A DNA stretch of 63,146 nt, filler included, from Rhabdomonas costata (Eukaryota): NCBI GenBank assembly GCA_019059605.1. It is 40 parts of 40 records of this genome, joined end to end, with 100 filler letters (N's around TTAATTAATTAA, not from the genome) between each part and the next. Parts side by side here need not be neighbours in the genome. Positions count along the whole stretch, not along the records: positions 18,983 to 20,463 come from JAHMHO010014824.1; 39 more parts are not named here. One strand, 5' to 3'. The first letter of the stretch is position 1, and every line of letters starts with the position of its first letter. The notes under the pieces are model-generated. The model ran no database searches, had not been told where the DNA came from, and saw only the letters and a list, made by a program, of their open reading frames with translations. This document shows, piece after piece, positions 4,911 to 42,703 of the stretch. The position numbers and the translations under genes are program-made.

Positions 4911-6228
4911 TTACAGTGGAGAGTGAAAAGAGACACGGCATGAAACGGGAAGGATTCGCGGGTTGCAGAGACACAATGAGGTCATACCGCTGCGCTGTGG
5001 CCGGTATGACTGAAGCGCGTTGAGGCCCTGCCCTGCGGCCATCTGTACACGAAACTCATCCAGGACGGAGTAAACACTGCTGCACACGGCCAGATCCTCT
5101 AGCACGGGCCGCAGATCCCTGAGCTCAGTGTCCGAAGAATCATCGAACCAAGACGTGCACTGAATGGAGTTCCTGGGCTGAAAGAGAAAGGAGGTCGGGC
5201 TGTTGTCTACGATAACAATCCGCTGCAGAGAGCGGCCCAGAAGGGAAAGGTCCTGCGAGCAGGCGCACGAATGGAAGCAGTGCCCCCCCCCACAACAAAA
5301 AATGCTTCCTCAAAGAAGGAAAAGCTGTGGCGTTGGAAACCTGCCCGACCCCTGACCCCCTTCACCTCCTGTCAGTTCACCTCTTTTAGCGTGATAGCTG
5401 ATCCGAAAGCTTGCGAACGGGTCTTTCGTGGGAGCATCCAGGCAGCGGGCGAGTAAGCGAGGGAAAACTTTTATGTTTCCATCTTTTCGTTGGCATCTGG
5501 TTCTGGGAGTGGCGAACTTTTTCGAATTTGGACTCCAGAACTGACTCCAGAAAACGTTCTGAGCTGGAGGACGAACTAAAACGAACACGTCGGAGGTCGC
5601 AAGCGACAGCAAAAAACCACCCACCAGCGGAAATTGGAACAGAGAACAGACAATACTTTAACGAAGAGCCCATTGGTATTAGAGCAATGTTCGCGAAAGA
5701 GCCTGTGGTGGACCATGGTGTTGTCAGGGTCGAGCTCATCCAGCACGGGGTCAGCGTACTGAAGAAAATCCCAGCACAACCCCAGCAAATTCCAAAGGAA
5801 GGAAGCAGAGTGAAAGATGCTCAGCAAGCCAGAGTGCCGATTGAAAAAGCAGGTGCTGCAGATTGCCGAGAGGGTTCGTGTGCTTAAACCGGAAGTGCGC
5901 ACTGGTGAGAGGAGGACAGGAACAAAATGTGCAAGTAAGATTTCAGGGACTAGGGAAGAAGGAAGGGAAGAACAGACCGACCAATAAAATGTTACGCAAT
6001 TGGAAAAAAAAAAGTGCACTGATCGTCAGCGTTGTGATGACCACCAAGGAAATCCCAGGAAAAAAATTGATGAAGCACACAAAAAAAAGAGACCGCATAA
6101 GTGGGAATTGAAACAATGAACTCGTGGAGTAGCAGACCTCAGATAAGGACGCTGTGAACACCACGACCTCGAACATCTGGGAGACAAACTTCATGAATTC
6201 GTCCACATACGGCCTTTTCCTCACGTAC
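4911..6228 (-). CDS. NIF/FCP1-SCP family CTD small phosphatase (partial, 3 exons)
   Basis: Exons 6228-6138 (YVRKRPYVDEF..VVVFTASLSE), 5758-5657 (YADPVLDELD..RLFREHC..GLFVK) and 5252-~4911 (DLSLLGRSLQRIVIVDNSP..FQPRN..SWFDD..DTEL). All introns GT-AG and in phase; 3' end uncertain. Confidence 0.93.
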
Positions 6229-6329
6229 NNNNNNNNNNNNNNNNNNNNNNNNNNNNNNNNNNNNNNNNNNNNTTAATTAATTAANNNNNNNNNNNNNNNN
6301 NNNNNNNNNNNNNNNNNNNNNNNNNNNNG

Positions 6330-6399
6330 TTGGGGTGGTGTCTCCCTCCGGCTCGCTCAAAATTTGAAAAAAGCGACCCGGAGGGAGACGCCACCCCAA
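6330..6399. repeat. Inverted repeat / hairpin element
   Basis: ttggggtggtgtctccctccgg (6330-6351) pairs with ccggagggagacgccaccccaa (6378-6399) with one G-T pair; inner tcgct/agcga extends the stem. Confidence 0.85.
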
Positions 6400-8400
6400 T
6401 TAAGGGCTCGCCATTTTATCACTTTATCAAAATGTTTCTCAGTTTTGGTATTTAATTTTTCCTCATGGGACATCTCGTTTTATGTAGGATGCGGCTGCCA
6501 CTTGTGAAAGTGAAGGAAGTGCTACGATATGTCAAGCGCCTTCCTCCGGTGAGGCGTGAGTTCTACCCACGATCATTCAACTTTCCAAGGCACTCACGTT
6601 TTCCAACTAACAATTCTGACGTCGACCTTCAGCACATAACTAACGTGTGTATGTTCTCCATGTTGGCACCAAGGATGGAGGTCAGCCACCGCCCGTTTTG
6701 GGTGGGAGATGGCAATGGCAGGAATTGTTGGCTTGGTCCTACGGCGAGTCCTTGCGGTCACTACGGGCCGTCACGGAGGTTGACTTTTTTCAGGCGACTT
6801 ATCACGGTTCAAGTAGCCAGATGATCCACGCACAACGCAAAAACAATGTTGGAAAACAAAGTGGAAAAAAGGGAGGCACGAGAGCCCTTCCAGACTCTTG
6901 CAGGCCACTTTGTGCTGGAAACGATGCAGATCCAGGCGACTTTCAGGGGTAAAAAAAATTGCAATTTGGCGAAAAAAATGCGGATAAGGAAAAACTGGAA
7001 AAAAATCATGCTTTTCAAGCCAAAAAATCCGATTCCGTTTTTTCTTTAAAACGTCAACCCGTCCACAGAAAAATGGAGGAGGGCAAAAGATGCGGCGGAT
7101 TGTGGGGTTTCCGCACAACCCAAGGGGTACCCAGTTTGGCGCGTTACCTTTTGATAGTGCGGGCTTCGGCGGGAGCGGTGCTTCAGCGGGTTCAGGTCGC
7201 ATTTCATTGAATTCAATCCTTGCACCAATCCAGCAGATAGTCAAACAAGGAGGCAAGGAGGTCAAGAACAAAACGAAGAGTCCATCCAATCTACTGGGAG
7301 GCACGGCAAAAGGCGTTTTAATAACAGCGGCAGCACGCTGAAAAGAGAAAAGAGTGAGAAGGAGAAGTGAAAACCACTTCACAAACGAGCCAAGCTGTCG
7401 CAGAAAGGACAGAAATTTGCAAAAAAAAAAAACCCTGCATTTTAAGCCAAAAATTCCCGAGGGGTCGAAATTGCAAAAAAAAAAACCTGAAGTTTCGCAT
7501 ATTCCCCTCCATTTCCAGACATATACACATATTACATACACATGCACATAAACACAAACCTACACATATTTACACATGTATACATTTTCACACATAAATC
7601 TCTCTTTCTCTGTGGTCCGGAACCATCCCCATTTTTTTACCACCCGATATGTCCTCTGAGCCAGATCCCCGGCGGCGGCGCACCGAGGAAGTCCTGTGGT
7701 GGGCCCTGGAGCTCTCTGAACAGGTGCGCCAACTTAGCCAACCGGTGGAAGCCCTGAGCCTGGCTCGGTGTTCTATCCAAAGAATGCCTGCACTCAGGAC
7801 CCCAACCACANNNNNNNNNNNNNNNNNNNNNNNNNNNNNNNNNNNNNNNNNNNNTTAATTAATTAANNNNNNNNNNNNNNNNNNNNNNNNNNNNNNNNNN
7901 NNNNNNNNNNTGTTGTGGTGGTGCCTACGAATTGCATGTACGCTGAAAGGTAGGAATGTATGGACTGTTCAAGATGCATAATAAAATAAATTCGCTGCAG
8001 AATCCTCATCTGGAGTGTGAACAAAGCCTAAAACAACAATTCCCCACAGGTGCCAAAAACCAATCGACAAACAATCGACAAACTAAATGTTACTGCAGTT
8101 CTGCTATCGGATTCTGTGCGTTCTTCCAGATGGGACAATCCAACCACTTCGCGTGAGGGCAGCGGGGGGAGGACCACACATTTTCTGCCCGAAGCACTAT
8201 TTAAAACCCCCCAGGATCACTCCCAGACCAGACCGGATCGGAACACAAAACAAACATCAGAAAATTGAAGTGGAGGGCTCGAATTTGAAATTATGGCAGT
8301 TTGAAAACACAATGTTCAGTTCACGAAATACAATACGTTCTATTGAAATGAATCTCAGTCAAAACCAAACCAAACGATGGAAGAAGAGATGCAGGCACAC

Positions 8401-9351
8401 CATGGAGTCAGAGCCGACTGCAAGAAGGGAATCGTTCACCGGGGACCATTCGAGTGAGACAACACTCTCTGTACGGGCAGAATCAGAAGGAAGCAGCATA
8501 CAAAACGACCCCCCCCCGCTCCCCACCAGATTCTCAGGCTTTTTTGCTTTTTTTTTTTGCCACTTCACTGCTTACCAGTTCCTCTTAATTTTTGCCTGCA
8601 TGTTGTGCCCATGCAATTGCTAATCCAGCCGACACGGGAAACTTCAAGATAATTAGCACACGCAACAATGCAAGAAACCTTCGGAAGCGGTCGAGCACAA
8701 AACAGTCTTGACCTCAACCCACTTCAATCAATGGGGACCTTTGCAGCACAGGAAAGCAAAAAGTCAACTGGGGAAGGGGACACACCTTGGTGAAAAGGGA
8801 ACTGGGCTACGGGACCAGCCTCTCCCGCCTTTACGCTGCGCAAGTCCCAAATTTTGAACACCCCACTGTCAGCGCCGGAGGCCAGAAGGTGCTTCGATTT
8901 TGCGTTTCTGTAAGGGCAGCCAAAAAAAACGGACCGAAAAACTGCTCAGATTGAGCACACATTTATAACTCGAATTTCCAAATGGGCACAAATCGTATAT
9001 GATGAACATTCTGACGGATAACTCGGAGTAGTCTTCTTGCGGAGAAGCTGTTGCTTCGATGCCAGCACTTTGTCACCAAAAAATTAGATCCTTCAACGGA
9101 TGGTCAGAATACTTCCATTTGTCCGGACAGCGCTTTGTTGCACGAGGGTTCCCAGCTGAAAATCTCGCTTCCCAGAAATGCAGCTGCGCCCATGCCGAGA
9201 GGAAGAGTCTAGGAGCACTCACGCAGGCATACGCGTTCCAGGAGATCACGTTGATATCCGTAGAGTCCGCCACCCACTGCATTTTTTGCGGCGACCGGTC
9301 CCGGACGTCCCAGAGCCGAATGGTAGTGTCCACGGAGCACGACGCGAGAAC
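8401..9351 (-). CDS. GRWD1: WD40 ribosome-assembly protein GRWD1/RRB1-like (partial, 3 exons)
   Basis: Exons 9351-9233 (VLASCSVDTTIRLWDVR..DINVISWN), 8907-8786 (HLLASGADSGVFKIWDLR..PVAQFPFHQ) and 8468-8401 (SVVSLEWSPVNDSLLAVGSD). GT-AG introns with matching phases. Confidence 0.85.
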
Positions 9352-9702
9352 CTTCACGGAAGCAAGCCAACTCAGGAACCAACCCCAAAACCNNNNNNNN
9401 NNNNNNNNNNNNNNNNNNNNNNNNNNNNNNNNNNNNTTAATTAATTAANNNNNNNNNNNNNNNNNNNNNNNNNNNNNNNNNNNNNNNNNNNNGTCGCTGT
9501 CCGTGTTTGTAGTGTAGTGCTCAAGCTTCTCCGCAGCCGTCAACTTCCCAAAGATGTTCAGGTCCAGCATTTTAAATCCCATATGCTATACGTTTTTCTT
9601 AAGTCTATGGAACGCCGTGTCGGACTTTGGACACTGAACTTTGTGCTTGTCAAATGCGTCGAAGGTCCATTGCTTGACCCCGCTCCCTTTTTTTTTGGCG
9701 GT

Positions 9703-9775
9703 GCAAAGCAAGGATGACGTTATTTCCAATGAATCCGATGATTCTTTCAAAATGCTTGAGAGAACTGAGCTTTGC
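9703..9775 (+). ncRNA. Box C/D snoRNA candidate, copy 1
   Basis: Terminal stem GCAAAGC/GCTTTGC, box C variant AGGATGA, D' ATGA, C' CCGATGA and box D CTGA directly before the 3' stem (k-turn geometry). Identical to copy 2 while the flanks diverge. Confidence 0.75.
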
Positions 9776-10134
9776 CTTCAGTTGGGAGCGAGTGGTGGCT
9801 GATTTCTGATTTCTTGTTGGTTTTTTCCCGTTGTTTCGACCCTCGGAAGTTGTGCTCTATGATTGGAAACAAGTCAGTTGCTTAAGCTTGGTAATACATT
9901 TTATCCCGAGTTTTTGTGAAGACGGTACCGATCTCTCTCAAGACTGTGTTTTTGCGGAGGCCTTCTTCGCCTCAAGTGCGCTCATTTTTGTCCTTGGCTG
10001 AACGGGCCCTCGCGTGACAATGAAGGAACCTTGCCTCCTTTCTGCATGGATATTGCCGCGGGTGAAACCTCCACCCGCGCTCACACACGCAAACACCGAC
10101 TGCCCCTGCCCCCCTCCCTTTTTTTTTTGGCGAT

Positions 10135-10207
10135 GCAAAGCAAGGATGACGTTATTTCCAATGAATCCGATGATTCTTTCAAAATGCTTGAGAGAACTGA
10201 GCTTTGC
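10135..10207 (+). ncRNA. Box C/D snoRNA candidate, copy 2
   Basis: 73-nt sequence identical to 9703-9775. Confidence 0.75.
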
Positions 10208-11516
10208 CTGCGTTTGGAAGCGAGCGGTTGCTGATTTCTTTCGTTGTTTCGACTCTTGGAAGGTGTGCTCTATCTCTATGATTGGAAATAAGCCTGTTCC
10301 TCAAACTTTTCTTCAACAAGTGCCCCGGTGAGGGAACCGTGTCAAGAAAGCACGTACTGCGCTTAGCGTACTGCTGCTCACTAGTCACGTCCTGCGCGGG
10401 ATGGGCTAGTACCGTGCCCCCCTCGCTCTCCCCAGTACATCGCACCCAGCAAAGCGAGTCGCTTCAGATATCCCCGAGTGTTTACCAGGACGTCCGATGA
10501 TCGGCATAATAATACCGTTCTGTTTTTGCGGAGGCTTTCTGCTGAGTTCCGTCCCTTAACTCGTTCATCTTGATTAGATTTTGACCACGTGTGCGATGAA
10601 AATCATTCACGCGCTTTGTGAGGACCTGCTCCACCCACCCCAACCGCCGAGGCAAGCTTGGGCTCCACCGGATTCTCTTTTTGGAACCGGTGGGCGTTAT
10701 TCTCTCGTCGTTCATCGTCTGGAGGGTTCCCTGTCGGTCTGTGGGTCGTCCCTCGGTCCAACCGACGGTGATTGCAGTGCTGATCGTTAGCTGAGTTCCT
10801 TGTGTTGTCAGGTCGAAGTCGCTGTCCGTGTTTGTAGTGTAGTGCTCAAGCTTCTCCGCAGCCGTCAACTTCCCAAAGATGTTCAGGTCCAGCATTTTAA
10901 ATCCCATATGCTATACGTTTTTCTTAAGTCTATGGAACGCCGTGTCGGACTTTGGACACTGAACTTTGTGCTTNNNNNNNNNNNNNNNNNNNNNNNNNNN
11001 NNNNNNNNNNNNNNNNNTTAATTAATTAANNNNNNNNNNNNNNNNNNNNNNNNNNNNNNNNNNNNNNNNNNNNGTGTGTGGGTAGGTTTTGTGCATGAAC
11101 TCGCTGTAGTAGCAACGAGCGTTGTTCCTGGCAGTGTTTTTTTTGGTTCGTTTTTTCTTGTTGTGCATTTTAATACAAACACGGCCTGAGGGTTCGACTG
11201 GGCGTTTTCACAGTAACGTGGGTTTTGTGTGCTGGAATGTTTTCGGTTTTTGGAGCTGGTGGTCTTTTTCGGGCCTTTAAGTTCCTTGTGAACTTAAAGT
11301 TGTTCGGTATTCGCGTATCGCTGCAGATCTTCCTATTCCCTCCCCCTCCCCCGATGCCCTTTTCTCTTGTTCGCTTCCATTGGGACTGCAGCACTCCCCG
11401 GTTTGTGACTGTTTTTACCTGAGGCCGCTCTGTGGCGTGTCATCAGTGCAAGCGTTTTTCTGCTGAGGACCACGGTCCACTTCTTCGAGCACTGTTCTTT
11501 GCGGCTCCATTATCAG

Positions 11517-12455
11517 GTGATGCCCCTGCTGGGGGGCGTCACGGCGGGCATGTTGGAAGAGGCCTTCTCGGTGTTCGGGGAGGTACACTCCGCAGTGGTG
11601 AACAACGGCACCCCGAATTACGGGCACGTGCGGTTTCTGGACCCGCTGAGTGCACAGCGTGCGGCGGAGCAGGGCGTCTTTCAGATCGGCACTACCCAGG
11701 CATCGTGCTTTGTTCGACAGACGGCCCACACTCCAACCACGCAGAATCTGGCACTGGCTTTAGCACTCGTAGGGAAAGCCGGGTGTGCGAGACGAACACC
11801 AGCCTGCCTGGGAGGTTCCGTCAGACAGTCCCAAGTCTTTTTTTGTAAGTAAGTATCACCGCTCAAGTCCTGGTCTTAAGCGGCGCTTGGAATCAGGCAC
11901 GCCCTCCTTCGGGCCACTCACTAACAGGGTTGTCGACGTTTTCATTACTTCTCTTGTTTTGCTCAAAACTATTTATCTACAGCTACACTGAATGGAAGTG
12001 CGCATGTGTGTGACTGAACGGAAGCATGCATGTCTATGTGTGGGCAGTGCTCGGTACGGCTGAGCCGCTGGCGTGCGGGGAAGGTCGCATCGGAGCCTCC
12101 GCCAAGTAACTACCTGGGGCTGTTCAACCTGCCCTTCACGACAAAGGCGGCCCAGCTTAAGACCTTCTTGTCCACCTTCCCGGGCTTCGTCAAAGTTCGA
12201 ATGGTTTGTTATGTGGTTGTGGCTGGGTATCATTCATGTGGCGTATTCCTTGATTTACCTGATTAGCAAACGCATTCAACGGCACCAAACATGCACATAA
12301 GCGACGGCCGTCACCCCGGGAAATTTTTTGTAATTTCGTTGCAGAGTCCCATTTCAGAATAGGATTTCAGCGGTCAAATGCTGCGAATAGCCTATGCAAA
12401 GCCAAAACCTGAAATACCCTTACGCACGGAGGCTTGTTCTCCACCAAAGGAGAAG
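11517..12455 (+). CDS. Tandem-RRM RNA-binding protein (partial)
   Basis: Exons 11517-11699 (..LEEAFSVFGEV..NYGHVRF..AQRA..IGTTQ), 12048-12203 (CSVRLS..SNYLGLFNLPF..LKTFLSTFPGFVKVRM) and 12363-12455 (DFSGQMLRIAYAK). The first intron has a GC donor; RNP1 of the second RRM was not found. Confidence 0.8.
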
Positions 12456-12878
12456 GTCCCACCGTGCCCAACCTTTTTCTAGAAGAAGATGACAGAGAGT
12501 TCCAAAATTGCCCAAGCTCAAAGGACAGCTGCCAGAGAGTCTCGTTGCAACAAANNNNNNNNNNNNNNNNNNNNNNNNNNNNNNNNNNNNNNNNNNNNTT
12601 AATTAATTAANNNNNNNNNNNNNNNNNNNNNNNNNNNNNNNNNNNNNNNNNNNNTGTTGTTTTTACTGCAGAAAAAAAGGCTAATTTACAACTGGGTTGG
12701 GTAATCACTGGTCCACTTCTGAGCAGTGCACCAGCTGAGGTCCGGAACGAAAGGAACTTCTACTAGACCCATACCCATTCAACTATAATCCCATCCCATG
12801 ATCACGCTACAGTGCACAAGGTGTGCATTCTGTTTTGGTTTGTGTGCATTCTGTCTGTGAGTGTGTGGCGGGGGACAC

Positions 12879-14136
12879 CCTGTCCTGTTCGCGGCGGAGC
12901 TGGCAGGTCACCAGCTCGAGCTGCTGGATGGTGCGCTCGGCGTTCAACAGCCGCAGCTGAGCTAGCCGAGGCTCCAGCAGGGCCCTGGCCTGGACGTCCC
13001 GGAACCGCACCTGCCCCAAAAACACGCAGAGAACAAAAAAAAAGAGAGAAAAAGAGCAGCAGCAAAAGAAGAGCTCCATAACAAATACAATACAGAGATC
13101 CCCACAAATTCGTATTTCTTTCTCAAAAACTCGTATTAAAAAATTCCCAAAATTTGGCCACATTGTGATGCAATGGTGATGTTGCCTTCATTGTACAGGA
13201 AAGTATGGAAGCACAACACTTTTCACCCTTTGCGGTGTTGGAGTTGTATCTTGCTTTTTCCTTGCCCTGTAAAGGGAAAGGAAGCACTCTGGACAACCCA
13301 CGCACAGACCTCCTGCTCTGCCAAGGTGCTGCTGCACGCTCCACCGCTCGGCAGAGCAAGCCTGTGACCGGCCGTCTCCGCGGCAAGTGGGGCCATGGCA
13401 CGGGCCCAGCACTCGCAGCACAGCCTCTCAAACTGCGCCGTGGTCTCGGGCTCACCGGTGATAAACTGGCTGTCGTGGAACCAGCCCTGGAAAAGCCGCG
13501 CCAGCTCCTCTTCGGCCTGCCGAAGCCGCCTGGACGAAGAAGTATAACAGCCGATGAGTGAGGGTGTGCGTTTGTGTTTGTGTTAGTGTCTGTTGGCGCA
13601 CAGCGCGCTGACTGTTGCCTGATTTACTGTTGGTCAGTACTGTGGACTGACCGGCGGCGCACGCGCTATTGGCCACAGTGTTGCTCCAGAGGTAACGTTG
13701 GAGTGAAAGAGAGGTGCCGTGGAAAGCTGAAAGCTCCGTGAAACCCTCCCTTCTGCCTCACGGGTCCCGGGCCTTTGTCGCGCAGCTGCGCTGTTCCGAC
13801 CGCTACCGGCACTGAACCATTGCAGTTCAAGTTTCTCACCTGCCCCTGTTATCGCCTCGCGAGGGCGCGCTGACTTGCGGGCCCACACCCACCGACTTGT
13901 CCGTCTGGAGGCTCACTATCGCACCCACCTGGCCCGGCAGTTTTTCCCACCCCCACCCCTCCACAACGGACAAAGACGACGACCCTAAATGCGTCTTGAA
14001 AACCACCGGCAAAAAAATCAGACCCATACCGGTTGAACTCGCAGAGGTTGATGTATGCCAAGGCCGAACCCACACTGACGCACGAGGGGTCGGTTTCCAT
14101 CTGCCGCGTCAGCTCCGCCATCAAGTCCCACCACAC
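12879..14136 (-). CDS. Hypothetical coiled-coil protein (partial, 3-4 exons)
   Basis: GC3-rich AG/GT-bounded exons 13529-13310 (RLRQAEEELARLFQ..AEQE) and 13010-12879 (VRFRDVQARALLEPRLAQLRLLNAERTIQQLE..) are in phase. Upstream exon boundaries are ambiguous. Confidence 0.6.
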
Positions 14137-14421
14137 NNNNNNNNNNNNNNNNNNNNNNNNNNNNNNNNNNNNNNNNNNNNTTAATTAATTAANNNNNNNN
14201 NNNNNNNNNNNNNNNNNNNNNNNNNNNNNNNNNNNNATGTCATTAGGGTACTTTTACATACCCCAATCACATTGAAGAAATCGTTCTATTGACTCACCTC
14301 CCTGTTCCAATTGAGGAGAAGTAGGTCAAGCCTACTTGATGAGACGGACCGTACACTGTATCCAGAACATCTCAACCTTTTTCCCGCACAAAGCACCCTC
14401 CCTGCAGAGAGGGATATAGAC

Positions 14422-15461
14422 CGCGGCGAAGAAAAAGCTTGACGTAGGGGTCGCTCGTGCGCCCGAGGAGGTCACGAACTCTGAGGTTCTTCCCGCTCTT
14501 CACGGTGATGAACGTCAGCACAGGCTGTTATTATTATTTGGAACCAAGAACCAAGAAGAGAGCAAAGTGAGGGGGGCCAACAGAGCACCCCAAAAGGAAT
14601 AGCATGTGCGGGAAGCAGGCCCCAATGCAAAAAATGGAGCAAAAAGGCAAACGGGAACACTCGAAAAACAAGTTGACACTGGAATCGAAAGGGAGCACAC
14701 AGAGACTGAGAGAGATAGAAACCGAAGGCACCGATGGGGCGGACGACGGGGAGCCGACGCGGAGGTCTGGGCTGTTGTCTGCGCTGCGGTGACGCACCCA
14801 CCTCCGGCGTCTACGGACGTTTGGGGTGGACTCCCAGAGCTCGCTGGGCGCGCTGTTCTCCCAGCCCTCGTGGTCCGTCACCCCAGCGCACTTCTCAAAC
14901 TCCCTGGCGACCCAAGGCAGCGAAAGCGCATCACAAATGGAAAGCATCATAATGGCGGTGTGGACGTTATCATGCACGCCGAGAAACCCGAGTCACATGA
15001 AAAGCCGTGGCAAACGCGGCGCGCGTTTGGCGCCACACGGATTTCACTCCGGTGCCGATGTTACCGATCTGTTGCAGAACCGGAACGACAGCGCTCCTCT
15101 GAATACGCGATTACCATGGCTCTGGGGTGGAATTTGTGGGCGTCTCTTTTGGGGTGCAGGCTTCCCTCCGACACGGCTCTGCACAGTTAGAACTGCCGCC
15201 ACAGAGTGGACGGCGCTTTGGGGGTGTACTCGCGGAAATGGGCTTGCCCCCCTCCCCCCACGAAAAAAGGGAGTGCATTGATGCCGAAGGATCACACAAA
15301 CAGGACCATGGGCCGTCCCACTTCCAGCCCTTGGGCAGCAGGTAGCCTTGCATGCTGCGACGCAGGCGTCCAGTTGCATCAGAAAACTTGTGGCAGCCCT
15401 CCCCGAGGCCCTTCGTCGTCCATGACCCACTGGAAGGGTCCAATCTTTGGTTCTCGTAAAT
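14422..15461 (-). CDS. DysF-domain + C2-domain protein (ferlin/TECPR1-like architecture; partial, 3 exons)
   Basis: Exons 15461-15307 (IYENQR..LPKGWKWDGPW, DysF-N), 14903-14732 (DHEGWE..VRRRRRWVRHR, DysF-C) and 14524-14422 (ITVKSGKNLRVRDLLGRTSDPYVKL, C2). GT-AG introns in phase. Confidence 0.85.
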
Positions 15462-18400: not shown

Positions 18401-19035
18401 GTCATTTTGCATGACTCGAAAACATGTCCGAGAGGTACCTGGACGTTTTTTGTTGGTAACAAGCGCTGGAAGACAACCATGCCATGTCATGGTGAGCCCT
18501 TTCATCCGGAAGTAAAACCAGATGTTCATGTGCTTCACAAATTGCAGCACATAAGCCTGTAAAACCTGGCGGCTCATGGCGGTGTGATCCATCTTGCGCC
18601 ATCCTAGCCCAGTCCCTGTGCTGCCTTGACATAGTTGCTGAGAATGGCATGCCACTGATGCAAAAACCTGTCGCACACCATGTTGGACGTGCCAACTTCA
18701 GGTTCTGGGTGTTTTGTGTAAAAGTTTGTGTAGAGCAGGAAATTGCACGTGCGGAGGAGTAGTTGACATGCATATTTGTGGGCGAAATTGAACTTCAGGA
18801 AGTGCCTGTTCCTTGGTGGAGATCGTAGCCACTTGAATTATTTGATGCCACTACAAAGACCAATCTTTCCGCGAGGCGCCAANNNNNNNNNNNNNNNNNN
18901 NNNNNNNNNNNNNNNNNNNNNNNNNNTTAATTAATTAANNNNNNNNNNNNNNNNNNNNNNNNNNNNNNNNNNNNNNNNNNNNGGTTGGGGGTGTTTGTAT
19001 CCAGTGTCTTGGAGTGGACGATGGGGTGTGCATCT

Positions 19036-19962
19036 GAGGAAGCATTCGAAGACCTGAGAATGCTGACGTCGGAGTGAACGAACGGACCGACCTATGTCGG
19101 GGAGTGAGTGAACCACGCATTTAGGAGGGAGGAACGAAGTGACGACCGACAGCAATCAACTCCCCTTGCGGGCCCCATGACCATGAGCGCAGCGAATGGG
19201 CATGGGGATCAAGGCATCTTTGAGTTCTGCATTTAGGAGGAGATGCGACGAAGGAGCATCGACGACAGCAAGAACCCCACGAAGGCATGTCGAGGGTACC
19301 GAGGCATGCCGTAGTAGCGTATTCCACTGTCGGGATTCTCACGTCCTCTCGAATCCCTCATTCTTCTCTAGCACCGCAGGTAGGGTGAGCGTAACCGTGA
19401 AGCGGTGGAGCGAGCCATCAACAGAGGAAGCATTCGAGGCACCGAGAATGCTGACGTCGTGTGACCCAGTGAACGGAAGCACCTTAGGGTGGTGAAGTGA
19501 ACCACACGTAGAGGAGGGACTCGAGGTACCGAGAGTCACGACGTCATCAAGAGGAGGAACGTACCGACGTCAGTCGGGGAGTGACGACGACCAGCAAATA
19601 CTCCTCTTCTGAGTTCAGTGAACGTAGCCGGGTAGCGGCGGAGTGAACCACCATGCAGAGGAAGGATGCGAGGTACCGAGCATCCTGACGTCATTCAAAG
19701 AGGAACATGAGACATGACCGGAACGCAGTGAAGGGAATGTCGATTGTGACGTCGGAGGAACATGAGCGAGTGCAACGAAGCGATTGTGACGACCAAGGAA
19801 CGAGGAAGGAGCGTAGCGACGACCGAGAGACAGAACTCCAATGAATACCCCTACCCTTGATGAGAGACACGAACAGGAGGCACGAACAACGTGAGAGCCG
19901 AGTGTGAGAGTCGAACCTACCGAGGAACAGGAGACACGAGCATCGCGAGAGTCGAGTGTGAC
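19036..19962 (+). other. Array of about 20 covarying GA-mismatch/GNA-loop hairpins (structured single-stranded nucleic acid element)
   Basis: Repeated GAGGA-[stem]-GA-loop-GA-[stem']-GACGTC and GT-GA-AC-GNA-[stem]-loop-[stem']-GNA-GT-GA-AC modules. Stem sequences differ between copies but stay complementary; see findings. Confidence 0.85.
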
Positions 19963-22703
19963 ACTGTGACTCAGCTTGGCATCGCGGTTCTGTCCCTGCG
20001 GGGCCCTTACCCTTACACTCAACCCCACCACTATAGCCCTTAGACCATCGGAGTGTGGACGTGATGCTTTACCTTGATGCTGATGCGGTGTTGTCGGGGT
20101 GTTGGACTGCGCAAGGACTGACACACCGGTAAGAGTGATGCCCTGACACCGTACCACCACCACCAACGCTACCACCACCAACAGCAAGGCAAGCACAGAA
20201 CGCGTAGACCATTACTAATAGGGTAACACACCCTACGTTGATGGCATACAGGCCCTGTGTCCAACCTCGAAGCAGAGGGATAGGGTGTAGCATGTGTGTT
20301 ATGTGTAAGGTAAGAACGTAGAGGGTGGAACCAAGTGGAAGGGTCGGTACGCCCAAGCAGCAAGGAACCCGTCACCTCTAACGCCAACCCTACACATAGC
20401 CACCACGTGACTGTCTACTAACTGGGCAACCAAGCCCCAACGTTGGACAACCGCACCAAACAANNNNNNNNNNNNNNNNNNNNNNNNNNNNNNNNNNNNN
20501 NNNNNNNTTAATTAATTAANNNNNNNNNNNNNNNNNNNNNNNNNNNNNNNNNNNNNNNNNNNNTGGTGTACTTTTTTGGGCGGGAATTTAGACGGCTCCC
20601 AGCTGCCACGGTATACGGCTTTAACGTTCAAAATTTGTAGTTAACCACCTCAACGCCCCAACCTTTTTTTTTGGGAAGGCGCAGCTTACTGAGTATTCTC
20701 CTTCCGAAGTGTTTTAGGGGAGGGGTTGAGAAATCGCGAGAATTTTCAGAGTCGAGAGACAGAGAGAGAGAATACGACCGAATTCATTATATTGTCGACA
20801 TACGGGATTTGGTATGAATAGTTGACCCGCTAACGATCTGAAGTTCGGCGTGTGACTGCCAAACCTGCAGCCTGGCCACTGACCTTCCCGGTTGGTTTTC
20901 CGGAAGGCGCCCCGCATTCCGCACTCCTTTGACGGCCGTTGGGCGCTGCCGCGGCTTACCTAGGAAAAAATCTGGTACCTGGCTTTTGATTACCGTCCGC
21001 CGCCTTTCGCGGCCCGGGGGGGTTCCTTCGCGACTCCCGCTTTTTCTCGGTGACCTCGCGGTTGTGATTCTTTCTCCTCCTGCAGTAAAGGCACTCCTCA
21101 TTTCAGAAACCGAATCTCCTTCGGTCAAGCATCATCCCTTGCCCGGAAACAAAGGCCCCCACAACACTTACTTTCACCCACATTTTCCCCCTAACGAAAT
21201 TCCCTTTTTGGCCAAATGACCGTTCTGGCCATTCCCCTTGACCATTGCTACTGTCTTTTCCCTGCACAACACCCGCTGCCTTTTTCGTGCTTTATTCCCG
21301 CCTTTGGTTTCCTTTTGTACCGCTTTTCCCCCGCGGACCTTTTGGTCACTTGACCCTACCGGCTTGTTTTTAAATTTTACAAAACTAAAGGAAATTAAGT
21401 ATCCGTAAACCGGGCCCTGAGCCCAGTACGAGGTTCGGGGGCCCGAGCCCTCTCGAGTCGAGTCGAGTCGAGAAGAGAAGAGAAGAAAGCGTTGTTGCCA
21501 CAAGGGCGGAGATAAATCCTGTAGGTCTGTTGGTGGGTCTTCGGAATGAAGATGAAGAAGCGGTGCATTTGGATAAAGCCAGTGCCGAAATGGGAGCAGC
21601 TGGATGGGAAGAAAGTGGAGAACGAAGGCGAAGCAAGAGCAAGCACTTCTGACCGAGGTAAGTCGGGAAAAAGCACAACTCGAGTATATAACACCCTGCC
21701 CGGCAGAAAATCAAAGCGATAGAGGAAAATGGTAGAGAAGGCCGAACCGGAGAGAGAGAAGGCAAGAGATTGAAAGCTGTTTACCTATTTTACAGGTTAC
21801 AGCTAAAAGCTCGGCGGGGCGAGGCTAAAGCGAGGTAGAGGCGAGTCAGGGCTAAAAAGGTTGAGAGCTGAACCTTCTCACTTTCCCCTGTGCTGTGCTC
21901 TGGTGCCGTTCCCTTCTTGTTTGCCTTGTTTTTGGGTTGGAAGGGCGTAAGCGGACGGCTGGGTAGAGGCAAGACCTCCAGGACCCCACCTCCCAGCGGA
22001 ACACTCAAAAGCAAAGGCCTTTGAAACGAGCAGCCAACAAAACCCNNNNNNNNNNNNNNNNNNNNNNNNNNNNNNNNNNNNNNNNNNNNTTAATTAATTA
22101 ANNNNNNNNNNNNNNNNNNNNNNNNNNNNNNNNNNNNNNNNNNNNGGTGTGTGGGACTGCAGCGTTGGGTTCGTTTTGGTTTGAGGTGGCGAATTTCATA
22201 TTCTTCAATTGCGTTCGTTTTTGTTGACTTTTTGGAGGTTTGCCGAGCAAAAGAAATTGCTTTGGTTTTGAACTACTCAGTTTTGAACTTCGATCATCCC
22301 CACGATTGCTCTCCAGATTGGTTTCTGATTGTTTCTCACTGCCATTCCCCAGAAACGTCAGGCGTTTGCAATCATTCTGGGTGTCCTGTCTTCCCGAGCT
22401 CTAATCCCCTTGCACGAGGGCAAGATGCCGGATGGGGGCTAACGGGGGTACCCCTTCCCATCCGGCTCACAGCGGTATGTGCCAGCCTGCTTAGAAGCCA
22501 GCTGGATCATAACGTACCAATATATCTCCGATATCTCTCAAGTGTTGGACGAAATGGTCGCTGGCTGACAAGTCCATTTTTTTGCGATATCTTCGGCTTT
22601 GAATGGACGACATTGCCTGTGTACCTGTGTGTTCTTTGAAGCCTGCTTTTCTTTCGCTGGGCCATTTGTTCTCTCCGGGTCGGTTTCCTTCTTTTCCGTG
22701 CAA

Positions 22704-23236
22704 ATGGGGTGCCTTCGGCTGCGCCAAAGCACCCGCCTCACCTCGATGCTGGTGCTGAACGGCTCCTTCATGGTGGTGGAGCTGGTAGTGGGCCACACCA
22801 CGCACTGCAATGCCCTCACCGCGGATGCCTTCCACATGCTCAGCGACGTGTTCTCCGTGTTGATCGCGCTTCTGGCGGTGCGGTTTGGCGCGAAGCCAGG
22901 TTATTTCAGTAGAGGCGGCAGCGCACGCCGTGCTTCACTTCTACATGCACACGTACTCTTTGTTGATGGAAAAGAAACATGAGACGCTTCTTCCTTTCAC
23001 TGCCAGCGCGGCGACTTCCGAACGGGATCTACGGGGATTTACAAGGCTGAGATTGCCGTTTTCCTTCTTTCCGCCTGTGTTCAGAGAAGTATGTCAGTGA
23101 CCGGTACTCCTTTGGGTGGGCCCGGGCGGAGCTTGTCGGGGCTCTGGTGAACAGCGTGTTTCTGGTGGCGCTGAGCTTTGACCTGGTGATCCAGGCAGCG
23201 ATGGAGTTCTACGAGGGACACACCATCACCTCCCCG
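22704..23236 (+). CDS. Cation diffusion facilitator zinc transporter, ZnT1/ZRC1-like (5' part, 2 exons)
   Basis: Exons 22704-22899 (M..ELVVG..NALTADAFHMLSD) and 23085-23236 (RYSFGWARAELVGALVNSVFL). CDF signature present; GT-AG phase-1 intron. Confidence 0.93.
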
Positions 23237-33075: not shown

Positions 33076-33510
33076 CCCACGCTTTCCGAACATCAAGACC
33101 AAACACCCAACACATNNNNNNNNNNNNNNNNNNNNNNNNNNNNNNNNNNNNNNNNNNNNTTAATTAATTAANNNNNNNNNNNNNNNNNNNNNNNNNNNNN
33201 NNNNNNNNNNNNNNNGGGGTCTTGGCTCCCTGAAAATGACTGCGGATGGTTCGTGAGAAGAAGACCTGCATGGAGCAAGCAGGATGCGCGGAAGTGCCAG
33301 AACATTGGCAGGATAAGAAGAGGGGATTAAAAGAAGATTGTTCAGAAGGGGCATAAGGCATAGCGAGGCGGTGCGGGGGTCGGGGGCGAGGGAAATAAGA
33401 AGGAGACCCAAGCACAAGAGAGGAACAGCAAGAGCCGGATCGTCGGTGGTGGTATGCCACTGAGTCTCACAGCGTTTTTTCTGCTGGGAATGCAATGCAG
33501 GGCACCACAC

Positions 33511-33665
33511 CAAGTCGTTGACCCTCCCGAAGACGTCGTCGATCTTCCCGATCAGGGCCTTGTCCTTGGTCCACACCCCGGCGTTGAAGTGGGGGATCTC
33601 CACGGGCTTCATGGTGACCTGCGCCACGATGAGGTCCTCACAGGGGTGCAGGAAGGACCCCAGCA
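33511..33665 (-). CDS. GAR1: H/ACA snoRNP subunit GAR1 (internal exon)
   Basis: LGSFLHPCEDLIVAQVTMKPVEIPHFNAGVWTKDKALIGKIDDVFGRVNDL matches the Gar1/Naf1 core; AG/GT bounded. Confidence 0.88.
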
Positions 33666-34879
33666 CTGAGATGGCAACCGGAGACAAGAAACTTGTTGAC
33701 TCCAAGGGCCATATGCAGACTGTATGAATGCTCGAAAAACCAGGGTTGAAGCAAAGCTAAGGTAAAATGAGGCAGCATCTCGACTGGGTTTATGTCTTGG
33801 ATTTCCTTCCCTGTGAAGTCACCGCTGTAGGAAACTGTCAAGCGGCGATTATTGGTCATCTCCTGGGTGGGTGAGATAAACGTATCCATGGCGATACTAC
33901 GTTTATGGATCGCAATAGTGCATGCATTGGTATGGTATGGCATGGTGTGGCTTCACAAGAAAAGTACATTTTGATGTGCAATCAAGAAACATGTCAAACA
34001 GAAACGCACCGAAGCAACGAGGAGAATAGATGTCCCATTTCAAATGTTCATTAAATGTTCATTTTCCCTTATTTTTCGCTATCAAGTCCGAAAAGATCGC
34101 TTTAGCAACACTTTTCTCAGTTCTGTGTTTTGAAGTGAAGAGGGCAATGTAATTATGGATCACAACAGCATAGTACCGTATGACAGGATATTGGTCAATG
34201 CGGCACGGTACGGTATGCACACGCTACATTGCCATGACCTTTCTCGGCGCGGTGGCGTGTGGCAATTTAGCATCCTTCAGCAGGGGTGTGACACTGACAT
34301 TGAATCTGGGTGTGTAATGGGAAAGGAAAGGCCACGGTATGGGTTTGATGAGGTCGCCTTGCATCGTGCCGTGCTTTCAGCCTAGACTCCACCGAGATGA
34401 TACATGGGCGGACAGTGGGGTGAGTTGAGAGCCAAAGCCCTCTGTCCTTGTGCCTGCGATTCGAGAGATGCGCTTGAGATGGGGTCAAAGGCATCGGATG
34501 CACAAGGGAATGCCAAAGTTAACTTAGCGAAGGCCTATGGGGTGAAGCTGCACTGCCGCAGTTTCGACCGTTCCGTTGCCTTCAAGGAAGCTCAGGGAAA
34601 GGAGCTGTGAGCGCTATGGTGCGTTTTGGAGAGGAGAGTGGGGGCTGACCCTTCATATTTTCCGGTGTGGGCTCAGGGCCACGAAACCCACCCACCNNNN
34701 NNNNNNNNNNNNNNNNNNNNNNNNNNNNNNNNNNNNNNNNTTAATTAATTAANNNNNNNNNNNNNNNNNNNNNNNNNNNNNNNNNNNNNNNNNNNNTTTG
34801 TTGGGGAGTCGGCAAAACCTCTGCCCCGTCCACCAAAGTTTTTGCCGACTCCGCAACTTCCATTGCTTCTTCATTGGAA

Positions 34880-40091: not shown

Positions 40092-41020
40092 CTATCCCTG
40101 AGAACCAAGGGGAAGGTCTTCCCCTTCCTCCTCCCCTCCCTGGGACAAACTGCTCGGGGGAAGGATCATAGCCCGGACCAGGGTCTTTCGCAGCGAGGAC
40201 AGCGTCACGGGCTTGCCCAGGAAGAAGTTCATCCCACTTGCCGCGCACCGCTCCTCGTCTTCCTCGGACACTCCCGCGGTCAGGGCGACGATGGGAGCGG
40301 CCTGAAACTGCGGCAGCTCCCGAATTCTCTGCGAGGCCTCGTAGCCATCCATCACAGGCTGAAAAGTGAAAGGGCAAAATGTCATTGAAATAATGGTCCG
40401 TCCATAACCTTAAGTTCAGAGAGGCAACGTATCAGTTGCGGTAAGAATTCGAATCAGCAATACTTGGAGATGAGACTCTCTCTACAGCTGGCTTTGACAC
40501 TGGAGCGCGACCGAAAATAGTGTCTTCAGCGCATCCCACACCCTTTGCTTTGTTCACTTTCGTCAATTCAAACTAGAGCATCACGAAACCTTTTCGGGCG
40601 GAGTGAAAACCAGTTTCCCCCACAACGACAACTGAATATGGTGAGAGGACTTCGACGTTGTTTTCCTAAAAGCTGAGTTCGAACAGGCCCCGGGCATTTT
40701 TATGTAACGTGGGCTTTGACGTAGCAGACGAAGCTTTTGAGAAGCGCTATATACCTTTCCAATGAAGCGACCAGCGATCACAGACGCCCCAAAGACAATG
40801 ACTGCGCGAAAAATTTGAATCCGAGACCGACCGCAGAAAGGAAAACACACCATATGGCAGTCCATGAATACTATATCAAACGTCCGCTCTCTGCATTTCG
40901 CGAGGGCCTCGGCGCCGTTACTAGCAACCTCGTGACCAACATCCCACTGGTCCAGCATGCGGCACAGAACCATCTGATTCACCTTCAGGTCACCCACAAC
41001 AACTGCTTGCTTGTACCCAA
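40092..41020 (-). CDS. C-terminal response-regulator receiver domain, hybrid histidine kinase type (2 exons)
   Basis: ..VNQMVLCRML..ASNGAEAL..FDIVFMDCHM (exon ends 40851) | PVMDGYEASQRIR..PIVALTA..GMNFFLGKP..* (40358-40092). Phosphoacceptor D and the conserved T and K are present. Confidence 0.92.
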
Positions 41021-42108: not shown

Positions 42109-42459
42109 TTATGTTCGGTAGCCATTCATCACCGTTCCATTTCTCAGCACTGTAAAGGAGTCCAGCACAGCGGCGTCCACGCTGCGCACGAAGCGGAACT
42201 GAAACCTCTCAGCCGTGGCCCGGACATGAGCAAAGCCAACAAAGGAGTGCCTCCGTACCGACCACGGTGGCACGATCCGTGTGAAGGTTTGCGGAGTGGT
42301 GAGCTTTCCCCCTGTGCCGACTAAGACGCTGATCGGGCCCCCATTGGGTAAGCAGTGGCTGCGGAGTACCGGGCATGTGCGCTCGTAGTTGTGAACGTGG
42401 CCCCAAAGGGTAAGGGTGACACGATACTTCTCGAGCAGGGGCTCCAGTACACGTTTGAG
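42109..42459 (-). CDS. Purple acid phosphatase, terminal exon
   Basis: LEPLLEKYRVTLTLWGHVHNYERTCPV..GPISVLVGTGG..WSVRR..VGF..DSFTVLR; GHxH metal motif present. Confidence 0.9.
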   Translation of the reverse strand, partial: LKRVLEPLLEKYRVTLTLWGHVHNYERTCPVLRSHCLPNGGPISVLVGTGGKLTTPQTFTRIVPPWSVRRHSFVGFAHVRATAERFQFRFVRSVDAAVLDSFTVLRNGTVMNGYRT

Positions 42460-42703
42460 CTGCGAGAGAAAAGAAGCTGGGAGAGGAAAGGGCACAAACC
42501 GGGGGCCCACTCAGCCGCGGTAAAAACCACAACCGGACTTATGAAAAACCGTGCCATTAAACCTGAGCCTAGACCTCCAAACAAAGCGATTAAAAAACAA
42601 ANNNNNNNNNNNNNNNNNNNNNNNNNNNNNNNNNNNNNNNNNNNNTTAATTAATTAANNNNNNNNNNNNNNNNNNNNNNNNNNNNNNNNNNNNNNNNNNN
42701 NGG

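What the first reader, a model, noticed from the sequence alone, without database searches (positions are those of the whole stretch)
19036..19692. Module A: GAGGA-[7-bp stem]-GA-6 nt-GA-[stem']-GACGTC with compensatory stems
Seen: four copies with stems AGCATTC/GAATGCT (19041-19064, 19429-19452), GGGACTC/GAGTCAC (19516-19539, one mismatch) and AGGATGC/GCATCCT (19663-19686). The caps are AGACCT, GGCACC, GGTACC and GGTACC, so the outer cap pair also covaries (A-T vs G-C). The same GAGGA...GACG(T/A)C frame encloses longer inserts at 19700-19753 and 19755-19793. Inference: a fixed-geometry binding or processing site; the palindromic GGTACC cap could also allow loop-loop pairing.
Basis: seen in the sequence. 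Interest (0 to 1): 0.72.

Follow-up and report, generated by a model that had tools for sequence, protein, structure and literature searches.

The report
GA-zipper hairpins beside euglenid mitochondrial genes
The four repeats belong to a family of about 190 copies whose two arms have changed together around fixed G-A pairs, and several contigs run from the end of a euglenid mitochondrial gene into arrays of such repeats, so they are likely single-stranded-DNA hairpins in a shared control region of the mitochondrial DNA that would help start its copying or transcription.

Summary
The four copies are real. They belong to a genome-wide family: 194 matches against 8 for the reversed pattern. In 69 distinct copies 92% of stem cells pair (shuffles 73%), and 8 of 10 pairs change on both sides. 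Module A is one unit of a ~930-nt array of 'GA-zipper' hairpins: short stems joined by tandem G·A steps and capped by two base pairs plus a GNA triloop or a 2-nt loop. GNRA and UUCG loops are nearly absent, which points to DNA rather than RNA. The scan noted such arrays before on other contigs of this genome, without a location. New here: 8 of 44 long contigs picked only for cox1, cob or nad similarity (euglenid type, TAG=Tyr) carry array-side blocks, against 1 of 39 controls. Seven of the eight have the same order and strand: gene end, spacer, array. The finding's own tail shares one of these blocks. Best reading: a shared non-coding control region of multipartite mitochondrial DNA whose main block folds on the template strand and likely serves initiation. 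The function is inferred. Loop-loop pairing is not supported. Gene-less cassettes in the same layout remain unidentified.

The parts
19036..19070 (+). Module A copy 1: 7-bp stem between two tandem G·A steps, cap AGACCT (2 bp + 2-nt loop)
19424..19458 (+). Module A copy 2, cap GGCACC
19511..19545 (+). Module A copy 3, one G·A mismatch in the stem, cap GGTACC
19658..19692 (+). Module A copy 4, cap GGTACC
19036..19962 (+). Whole GA-zipper array (at least 15 hairpins on + and one on -); the + strand is antisense to the inferred neighbouring mitochondrial gene or cassette
19076..19111 (+). Zipper hairpin, 3 GA steps, irregular (bulged)
19124..19150 (+). Zipper hairpin, 3 GA steps, GAA triloop
19173..19207 (+). 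Long stem, 1 GA step, GCA triloop
19236..19266 (+). Zipper hairpin, 3 GA steps, GAA triloop
19282..19312 (+). Stem with 1 GA step and a 3-nt loop
19329..19359 (-). Inverted Module-A-like unit: perfect 7-bp stem between GA steps, 8-nt cap
   Evidence: read directly
19551..19571 (+). Short zipper, 1 GA step (weak parse)
19700..19753 (+).
19754..19793 (+).
19797..19831 (+). Zipper, 4 GA steps, GTA triloop
19864..19914 (+). Zipper, 4 GA steps, 13 pairs
19924..19962 (+). Zipper, 3 GA steps
19963..20463 (-). Non-coding spacer; 93.8% identical over 452 nt to L144 (G000:C12986), which begins with a short motif resembling the cob/nad5 3' tail
20216..20239 (-). Core of the conserved block (CONS), found in 20 loci, among them L499, where it lies downstream of the cox1-type 3' tail; 0 hits in 39 control contigs

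Best explanation
Module A is one repeated unit of an array of hairpins whose stems covary around invariant GA/GA steps, and arrays of this family follow mitochondrial gene ends in several contigs; they likely fold as single-stranded DNA in a shared control region of this euglenid's multipartite mitochondrial DNA and would act as the platform where RNA synthesis (transcript or replication primer) starts. Shown: the covariation, the invariant GA/GA steps, the loop spectrum, the gene-spacer-array order and the strand polarity. Inferred from DNA chemistry: sheared G·A pairs and folding as DNA. Inferred, untested mechanism: when the region opens (supercoiling, D-loop or strand displacement), the main block folds on the strand antisense to the genes while its TC/TC complement cannot; single-strand binding protein coats the complement; a T7-like mitochondrial RNA polymerase or a primase starts on the folded template strand, as at phage N4 early promoters. 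The short inverted block at the gene-proximal boundary would do the same for the other strand. Module order is shuffled by recombination or template switching, and many assembled copies are decayed or nuclear-inserted pieces.
For: Structure: 194 matches vs 8 for the reversed pattern. In 69 distinct copies 91.7% of cells pair vs 73.4% in shuffles, 136 two-sided changes vs 45, slid controls 24-46%. GA/GA in 121 copies, GA/TC or TC/GA in 0. DNA rather than RNA: 248 hairpins with 2 or more GA steps vs 0 with AG steps and 0 in 57.8 kb of control contigs; 106 of 115 triloops are GNA, 3 of 33 tetraloops GNRA, none UUCG; stem mismatches 21 G·A vs 5 G·T of 36. RNA counterparts of mini-hairpins are much less stable (PMC13037366, passages). 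Location: 8 of 110 gene-selected loci (8 of 44 at 900 nt or longer) carry array-side blocks or zippers vs 1 of 39 controls. cox1 3' end to boundary and array in L247 and L235, to pre-boundary blocks in L233 and L229; cob to array modules in L210; a nad5-like end to the pre-array block in L223; a cox1-type tail to CONS in L499; all 7 have the same polarity. Array contig L024 carries 126 nt (87%) of the spacer that follows cox1 in L231 and L229. Zippers lie downstream of CONS: 20 on the opposite strand, 1 on the same, none upstream (L144 counted once); downstream of the boundary 70 opposite vs 21 same. Precedent: N4 promoters, plasmid ssiA and phage G4 origins carry GNA mini-hairpins (PMC4496689, PMC13037366; passages); diplonemid constant regions are thought to carry origin and promoter (PMC7049700, passages).
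Against: No call shows folding, a bound protein, a start site or a closed molecule. Standard DNA energy models give no excess stability (z -0.84 on +, -0.64 on -), and only 0.7-1.0 kcal/mol strand difference per module; that these models lack sheared-GA terms is my recall. The assembly is rich in rearranged joints: in two of three runs about half the laid contigs run on into unlike sequence. Four links break the pattern: L253 (pre-array block upstream of the cox1 end), L141 and L063 (array on the gene strand), L108 (cob cut mid-gene). 36 of 44 long gene contigs show no array-side feature. The nad5 call is weak (Pfam E 0.02-0.04). The finding's contig is tied to genes only through shared blocks, and it differs from the dominant high-depth variant, so it may be a minor or nuclear copy. 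Module A itself lacks the GNA loop that N4 polymerase reads. A dozen shuffled hairpins is more than an origin needs. No smooth G+T gradient towards the boundary.
Confidence: 0.45

Rival explanations
1. The arrays are in mitochondrial DNA and fold as single-stranded DNA, but they are self-propagating or merely protective repeats (like double-hairpin elements, GC clusters or sponge hairpin elements); stable folds survive and recombine during single-stranded phases without starting anything.
For: Module order differs between contigs, with many skip and go-back joints. Many module types, high redundancy. Mini-hairpins resist nucleases (PMC13037366, passages). The same triloop zipper occurs in 6 unrelated viral contigs, one with several copies.
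Against: Arrays keep a fixed place behind a conserved boundary motif (28 hits) and a fixed polarity. GA/GA is never corrected to a palindrome. None of 23 array contigs with a unique flank is flanked on both sides.
Confidence: 0.25
2. The arrays are the folded ends of linear mitochondrial molecules, like Streptomyces telomeres; Euglena gracilis mtDNA is linear with terminal repeats.
For: GNA-loop hairpins with sheared pairs pack Streptomyces 3' overhangs (PMC5449611, passages). E. gracilis has 4-8 kb linear molecules with terminal repeats (PMC4700960, passages). All 23 unique flanks join at the distal side of the array.
Against: The main block folds on the strand whose 5' end, not 3' end, would be terminal. 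L172, L007, L045, L014 and L161 run on past the array into a shared or similar region, and L172 on into GT-rich repeats. The one-sided joining is generic: 9 of 9 gene contigs show the same side.
Confidence: 0.1
3. The arrays are a nuclear repeat or non-autonomous mobile element, and the links to mitochondrial genes are amplification chimeras or compound nuclear insertions.
For: Many arrays abut nuclear-type DNA. Rearranged joints are common. Earlier notes of the scan read related contigs as ordinary repeats.
Against: cox1 (46 matches) and cob (37) pieces abut nuclear-type DNA in the same way. The 23 junctions all differ, so there is no defined end or two-sided insertion. Seven independent gene contigs give the same order and strand, and share spacer sequence with array-selected contigs.
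Confidence: 0.1
4. The hairpins act in RNA, as processing, termination or protein-binding signals of long mitochondrial transcripts.
For: Tandem G·A pairs are common in RNA (recalled). RNA energy parameters fold the + strand 3-4 kcal/mol better than the - strand. Arrays lie downstream of genes.
Against: GNA triloops and 2-nt loops dominate, GNRA and UUCG loops are nearly absent, G·U pairs are rare. The main block is antisense to the genes. No relevant Rfam match.
Confidence: 0.07
5. Palindromic caps pair loop to loop between molecules.
For: GGTACC is the commonest cap (30 of 122).
Against: 86 of 122 caps are not self-complementary and their partners are nearly absent; cap positions 1-2 pair with 5-6 within the molecule.
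Confidence: 0.03

Closest known systems
DNA mini-hairpins GCGNAGC / C-GNA-G triloops (review PMC13037366, passages read; PMC3201870, search listing only)
   Same: Two base pairs under a minimal loop; 100 of 115 triloops in the arrays are C-GNA-G.
   Different: Module A has a 2-nt loop closed by G-C, and every cap sits on a ladder of tandem G·A steps with covarying stems.
Phage N4 early promoters; plasmid ssiA and phage G4 origin (PMC4496689, PMC13037366; passages read)
   Same: Strand-specific GNA-capped DNA hairpin on the template strand, variable stem letters as long as they pair; N4's enzyme is T7-like, as mitochondrial RNA polymerases are.
   Different: Single 5-7-bp hairpins with a mapped start site; here a dozen shuffled zippers, and no start site or enzyme shown.
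Constant regions of diplonemid mitochondrial chromosomes (PMC7049700, passages) and of Stylonematophyceae minicircles (PMC10250338, passages)
   Same: Unique gene or cassette next to shared, repeat-rich non-coding DNA; several classes; diplonemids also have cassettes without identified modules.
   Different: Genes here are contiguous, shared blocks form a 70-95% mosaic, circularity is not shown, and the diplonemid paper's main text has no occurrence of 'hairpin'.
Euglena gracilis mitochondrial DNA (PMC4700960, passages)
   Same: Euglenid; about one gene per piece, strong recombination, scattered gene fragments.
   Different: Described as linear pieces with terminal repeats; no G·A hairpin arrays in the passages seen.
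Streptomyces telomere palindromes (PMC5449611, passages)
   Same: Packed single-strand hairpins with GNA loops and sheared G·A pairs.
   Different: Terminal 3' overhang with terminal proteins; here arrays appear internal in some contigs and have the other polarity.
Mitochondrial hairpin repeats: double-hairpin elements, GC clusters, sponge RHE (search listing only; details recalled)
   Same: Hairpin-forming repeats that spread in mitochondrial non-coding DNA.
   Different: Recalled as Watson-Crick palindromes dispersed through the genome; here G·A ladders are clustered behind a fixed boundary.

Membership tests
DNA mini-hairpin (GCGNAGC type) | GNA loop on two base pairs, in Module A itself | tested here: not met
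   Module A caps are 2 bp + 2-nt loop closed by G-C
DNA mini-hairpin (GCGNAGC type) | GNA loop on two base pairs, in the sibling hairpins of the array | tested here: met
   106 of 115 triloops are GNA, 100 are C-GNA-G
DNA mini-hairpin (GCGNAGC type) | Exceptional melting point and nuclease resistance | not testable with these tools
   needs oligo melting or digestion
Non-coding region of euglenid mitochondrial DNA | Physical linkage to mitochondrial genes in constant order | tested here: met
   8 of 44 long gene contigs vs 1 of 39 controls; 7 of 8 same order and strand; amplified, fragmented assembly
Non-coding region of euglenid mitochondrial DNA | Located in the organelle rather than in nuclear insertions | not testable with these tools
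   contig depth cannot show it
Diplonemid-type chromosome | Constant region over 90% identical over 100 bp around a unique cassette | tested here: inconclusive
   within a class 77-99%; between classes short blocks at 60-90%
Diplonemid-type chromosome | Protein genes split into short modules | tested here: not met
   cox1 profile positions 16-236 and 237-415, cob 20-174 and a 230-aa nad4 stretch each lie in one frame
Diplonemid-type chromosome | Closed circles | not testable with these tools
   only a chain of overlaps; no contig closes
Kinetoplast minicircle | Cassettes encode guide RNAs complementary to mRNAs | tested here: not met
   14 cassette stretches, both strands, G·U allowed, against partial cox1, cob, nad4, nad5 and four other GT-rich stretches: none above the shuffle maximum; ungapped test only, cox2, cox3 and nad1 not included
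Kinetoplast minicircle | CSB-1/2/3 (UMS) blocks | not tested
   no reference sequence from a call
Phage N4-type hairpin promoter | GNA-capped hairpin on the template strand | tested here: met
   main block antisense to genes; applies to triloop siblings, not to Module A's loop
Phage N4-type hairpin promoter | Start site at fixed distance, used by a T7-like polymerase | not testable with these tools
   no RNA ends available
Streptomyces-type telomere | Hairpins on the 3' strand at a molecule end | tested here: not met
   polarity reversed and five contigs continue past the array
Nuclear transposable element | Defined ends, two-sided insertion with target duplication | tested here: not met
   23 different junctions, 0 two-sided; contigs are short
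K-turn or other Rfam RNA | Asymmetric bulge beside tandem G·A (recalled), or a family match | tested here: not met
   stems symmetric; only two chance-level Rfam hits, E 1.4 and 9.9, outside the array

The most novel reading that the evidence does not exclude
This euglenid has a multipartite, circular-mapping mitochondrial genome of 3-5 kb minichromosomes. Each carries one intact gene or one small gene-less cassette (unknown RNAs, possibly scattered rRNA pieces) and a shared control region made of G·A-zipper single-strand folds, which the T7-like mitochondrial polymerase reads as N4-style promoters or origins. It would be an intermediate between Euglena's linear pieces and diplonemid or kinetoplastid circles, and an organelle origin built on non-Watson-Crick DNA structure.
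Probability: 0.22. Interest if true: 0.87.

Novelty: new variant of a known kind. Interest (0 to 1): 0.62.

Why it matters
How euglenid mitochondrial DNA is organised and copied is an open question; only Euglena gracilis is described, as recombining linear pieces. A conserved gene-spacer-boundary-array layout gives primers and probes that make topology, origin and promoter directly testable. The arrays also give unusually rich natural covariation for tandem G·A DNA folds, which are known mostly from synthetic oligos and a few phage and bacterial sites. Not found in print in my searches, nor in the main-text passages or six held supplement files of PMC8219788. The library lacks most subscription journals, and I know Spencer and Gray 2011 only through citations in PMC4700960.

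Tried and rejected
Rfam: no relevant family on the contig, on 16 related loci, or on a cassette. rRNA identity of the cassettes: resemblances seen by eye were not supported. nhmmer and pairwise tests against E. coli rRNA were not significant; the collinear-anchor test gave 2 of 36 marginal excesses over 8-12 shuffles, on opposite strands; 20 cassette stretches gave combined p 0.09 sense and 0.27 antisense, with one hit to 23S 2045-2079 at p 0.015 uncorrected. Guide-RNA pairing: negative. Conserved ORFs in spacers: none seen in six-frame translations of 5 of 19 regions; the 198-aa frame over the array has no Pfam match. L500 as cox2 and L051 as cox3: no Pfam support. Palindrome correction as the source of covariation: rejected. 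One-sided junctions as a sign of polymerase stalling at hairpins: rejected, since gene contigs show the same bias. G+T gradient expected of strand displacement: not seen. Whole-array folding z-scores: not significant. Sequencing runs: no RNA holder listed; three runs of one sample, so not independent. A pattern for the cassette-flank hairpin was mis-specified and gave only 2 hits. The measure 'pairs with a two-sided change' alone was not significant (27 of 500 shuffles).

Full report
Setting. The window is 40 unrelated contigs of about 1.48 kb joined by N spacers. The finding lies in G000:C14824 (window 18983-20463), in an assembly of 104,289 contigs and 97 Mb. The host is a euglenid by its mitochondrial genes: 46 cox1 and 37 cob matches, many with in-frame TAG at tyrosine positions. 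This code is published for the euglenid Rhabdomonas costata (PMC8219788, passages). Many contigs start G/T-rich, which I read, from recall, as whole-genome-amplification primers; chimeras therefore have to be kept in mind.

Observation. The four copies, their stems and caps are as described. The frame with a loosely defined cap has 194 matches in the genome against 8 for the reversed pattern; only the first 100 were listed. In the loci fetched, 115 of 129 instances pair at 6-7 of 7 stem positions. The 41 distinct stems average 5.59 pairs, against 3.61 (maximum 4.46 in 5,000) when arms are re-paired at random. An unfiltered, gap-free alignment of 69 distinct copies gives 91.7% paired cells (shuffles 73.4%), 136 two-sided changes (45) and 8 of 10 pairs with such changes; sliding the partner drops pairing to 24-46%. 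Copies are related, so these counts are not independent events, and the pair-count measure alone was reached by 27 of 500 shuffles. The same tight pattern in viral, metagenome and prokaryote collections gives chance-like stems (3 of 218 scored with 6 pairs, none with 7), against 103 of 109 with 6 or 7 here.

What the module is. The GA dinucleotides face each other, so the unit is G-C, tandem G·A, 7 bp, tandem G·A, 2 bp and a 2-nt loop. It is one member of a design. Across 221 kb of fetched loci there are 248 hairpins with two or more GA/GA steps, none with AG/AG steps, and none in the other 39 contigs of the window. Nearly all end in a GA step, two base pairs and either a triloop (106) or a 2-nt loop (73). 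The finding's contig holds at least 15 such hairpins on + between 19036 and 19962, and one inverted unit. The step is never perfected: GA/GA 121 times, GA/TC or TC/GA never. This excludes palindrome correction as the cause of covariation and means only one strand can form the ladder. Loop and mismatch spectra point to DNA: 106 of 115 triloops GNA, 3 of 33 tetraloops GNRA, no UUCG, 21 G·A against 5 G·T mismatches. GNA mini-hairpins are far more stable in DNA than in RNA (PMC13037366, passages). Against this, standard energy models show no excess folding. Loop-loop pairing fails because most caps are neither self-complementary nor matched by a partner cap. Earlier notes of the scan reached a similar fold-level reading on other contigs; my reading was written before I saw them.

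Where it sits. Loci chosen only for similarity to cox1, cob or nad genes were checked for array-side features defined from array-selected loci: 8 of 110 (8 of 44 at 900 nt or longer) carry them, against 1 lone hairpin in 39 control contigs. L247 runs from the cox1 3' end through about 550 nt of GT-rich spacer and two conserved blocks to the boundary motif and the first hairpin. L235 runs from cox1 to boundary and array. L233 and L229 reach the pre-boundary blocks. L210 runs from 490 nt of cob to array modules. L223 runs from a nad5-like end to the pre-array block. L499 runs from a cox1-type tail to the CONS block. All seven have the same order and strand. Pfam confirms the cox1 C-terminal frame in L231 (E 2e-10) and, below the curated cut-off, in L233; the nad5 call is weak. 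Array contig L024 shares the post-cox1 spacer. Exceptions exist: L253, L141, L063 and L108 are rearranged relative to this pattern. The finding's own tail carries the CONS core at 20216-20239 and is 93.8% identical to L144, so its hairpins lie on the strand antisense to whatever gene or cassette precedes it. That polarity is general. In two public runs of one sample, single contigs at depth 160-350 cover the tail with 1-8 differences, while the array pieces listed lie at 7-37; the window's copy looks like a minor variant or a nuclear insertion. Arrays abut nuclear-type DNA at 23 different junctions, never on both sides, as cox1 and cob pieces do.

Larger layout. Many array contigs have, in place of a protein gene, GT-rich repeats, a small TTCG-loop hairpin, a unique 100-600-nt cassette and a mosaic spacer before the boundary. 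I counted about eight classes by eye. The cassettes are not guide RNAs for the genes tested and could not be shown to be rRNA. L172, L007 and L045 link the far side of the array to a shared or similar region and on to the GT-rich repeats. This suggests a circular or head-to-tail map of roughly 3-5 kb, but no contig closes it.

Mechanism. The best-supported reading is a shared control region in which a strand-specific DNA fold marks the template strand for a T7-like polymerase or a primase. At N4 early promoters supercoiling extrudes a GNA-capped hairpin and single-strand binding protein melts only the non-template copy (PMC4496689, passages). Location (about 0.8) and DNA-level fold (about 0.85) are well supported; the initiation role is inference by analogy, giving 0.45 overall. 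A selfish or protective repeat in the same place is the main rival (0.25). Telomere (0.1), nuclear repeat (0.1), RNA signal (0.07) and kissing loops (0.03) follow.

Comparison and novelty. It works like N4 promoters, single-strand initiation signals and Streptomyces telomere hairpins in fold chemistry, and like diplonemid or red-algal constant regions in position (PMC7049700, PMC10250338, PMC5449611; passages). It is not a member of the diplonemid, kinetoplast, telomere or transposon classes on the features tested. The triloop zipper core also occurs in 6 viral contigs, so the chemistry is widespread; Module A's 2-nt-loop form and the link to mitochondrial genes were found only here. My searches found no description in print. 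Verdict: real, a new variant of a known kind, interest 0.62.

Noticed in passing
L178 = G000:C31520:848-985 (-): cox3-like stretch (Pfam E 2e-5) with GC-rich codons, bounded by CAG and GC in nuclear-type sequence; cox3 may be nucleus-encoded in this euglenid.
   Followed up: no
L034, L032, L499, L500, L051, L063; L109, L210, L217, L223, L227: Different mitochondrial reading frames share 3' tails: one in cox1 and in two or three unidentified GT-rich frames, another in cob and the nad5-like frame; neither ends in a clear TAA. Possible shared 3' processing signals.
   Followed up: partly
L133, L140, L128, L142, L143, L040, L121, L043, L067, L145, L180: About eight classes of gene-less cassettes behind GT-rich repeats and a TTCG-loop hairpin; identity unknown. 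L040 has one stretch like 23S 2045-2079 (p 0.015 uncorrected).
   Followed up: partly
window 20083-20463: In run X2 (kind not on record) summed contig depth over parts of the tail reaches 5,000-15,000, far above X1 and X3; contigs cannot show expression, so this is unexplained.
   Followed up: no
all mitochondrial-type loci: Unique flanks always join at the 3' side of the GT-rich strand (23 of 23 array contigs, 9 of 9 gene contigs), probably a primer bias of the amplification.
   Followed up: partly
L177 = G000:C27469; L181, L182, L191; L066: AT-rich full-length cox3, other nad-family hits without TAG, and a second 18S: likely contaminants.
   Followed up: no
L161 (-) 100-175; L045 420-500 (reverse strand): The region beyond the array has repeated G-rich/TGTAAA motifs and A-tracts, reminiscent (recalled, untested) of kinetoplast origin and bent-DNA sequence.
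   Followed up: no
L193 = G000:C17972: A 36-codon nad5 fragment embedded in GT-rich non-coding DNA, like the scattered fragments of Euglena mtDNA.
   Followed up: no
L123 850-2002: An array joins sequence that looks by eye like an LTR-retrotransposon integrase region; not scanned.
   Followed up: no
L515, L516 (viral contigs): Clusters of the same triloop GA zipper in a giant-virus MAG contig and in a 64-kb viral contig, the latter with an inverted copy.
   Followed up: no
window 4911-6025, 22569-22982, 33217-33756, 40581-41018, 42109-42510: Ordinary nuclear exons: NIF phosphatase, cation efflux, Gar1/Naf1, response regulator, purple acid phosphatase.
   Followed up: no
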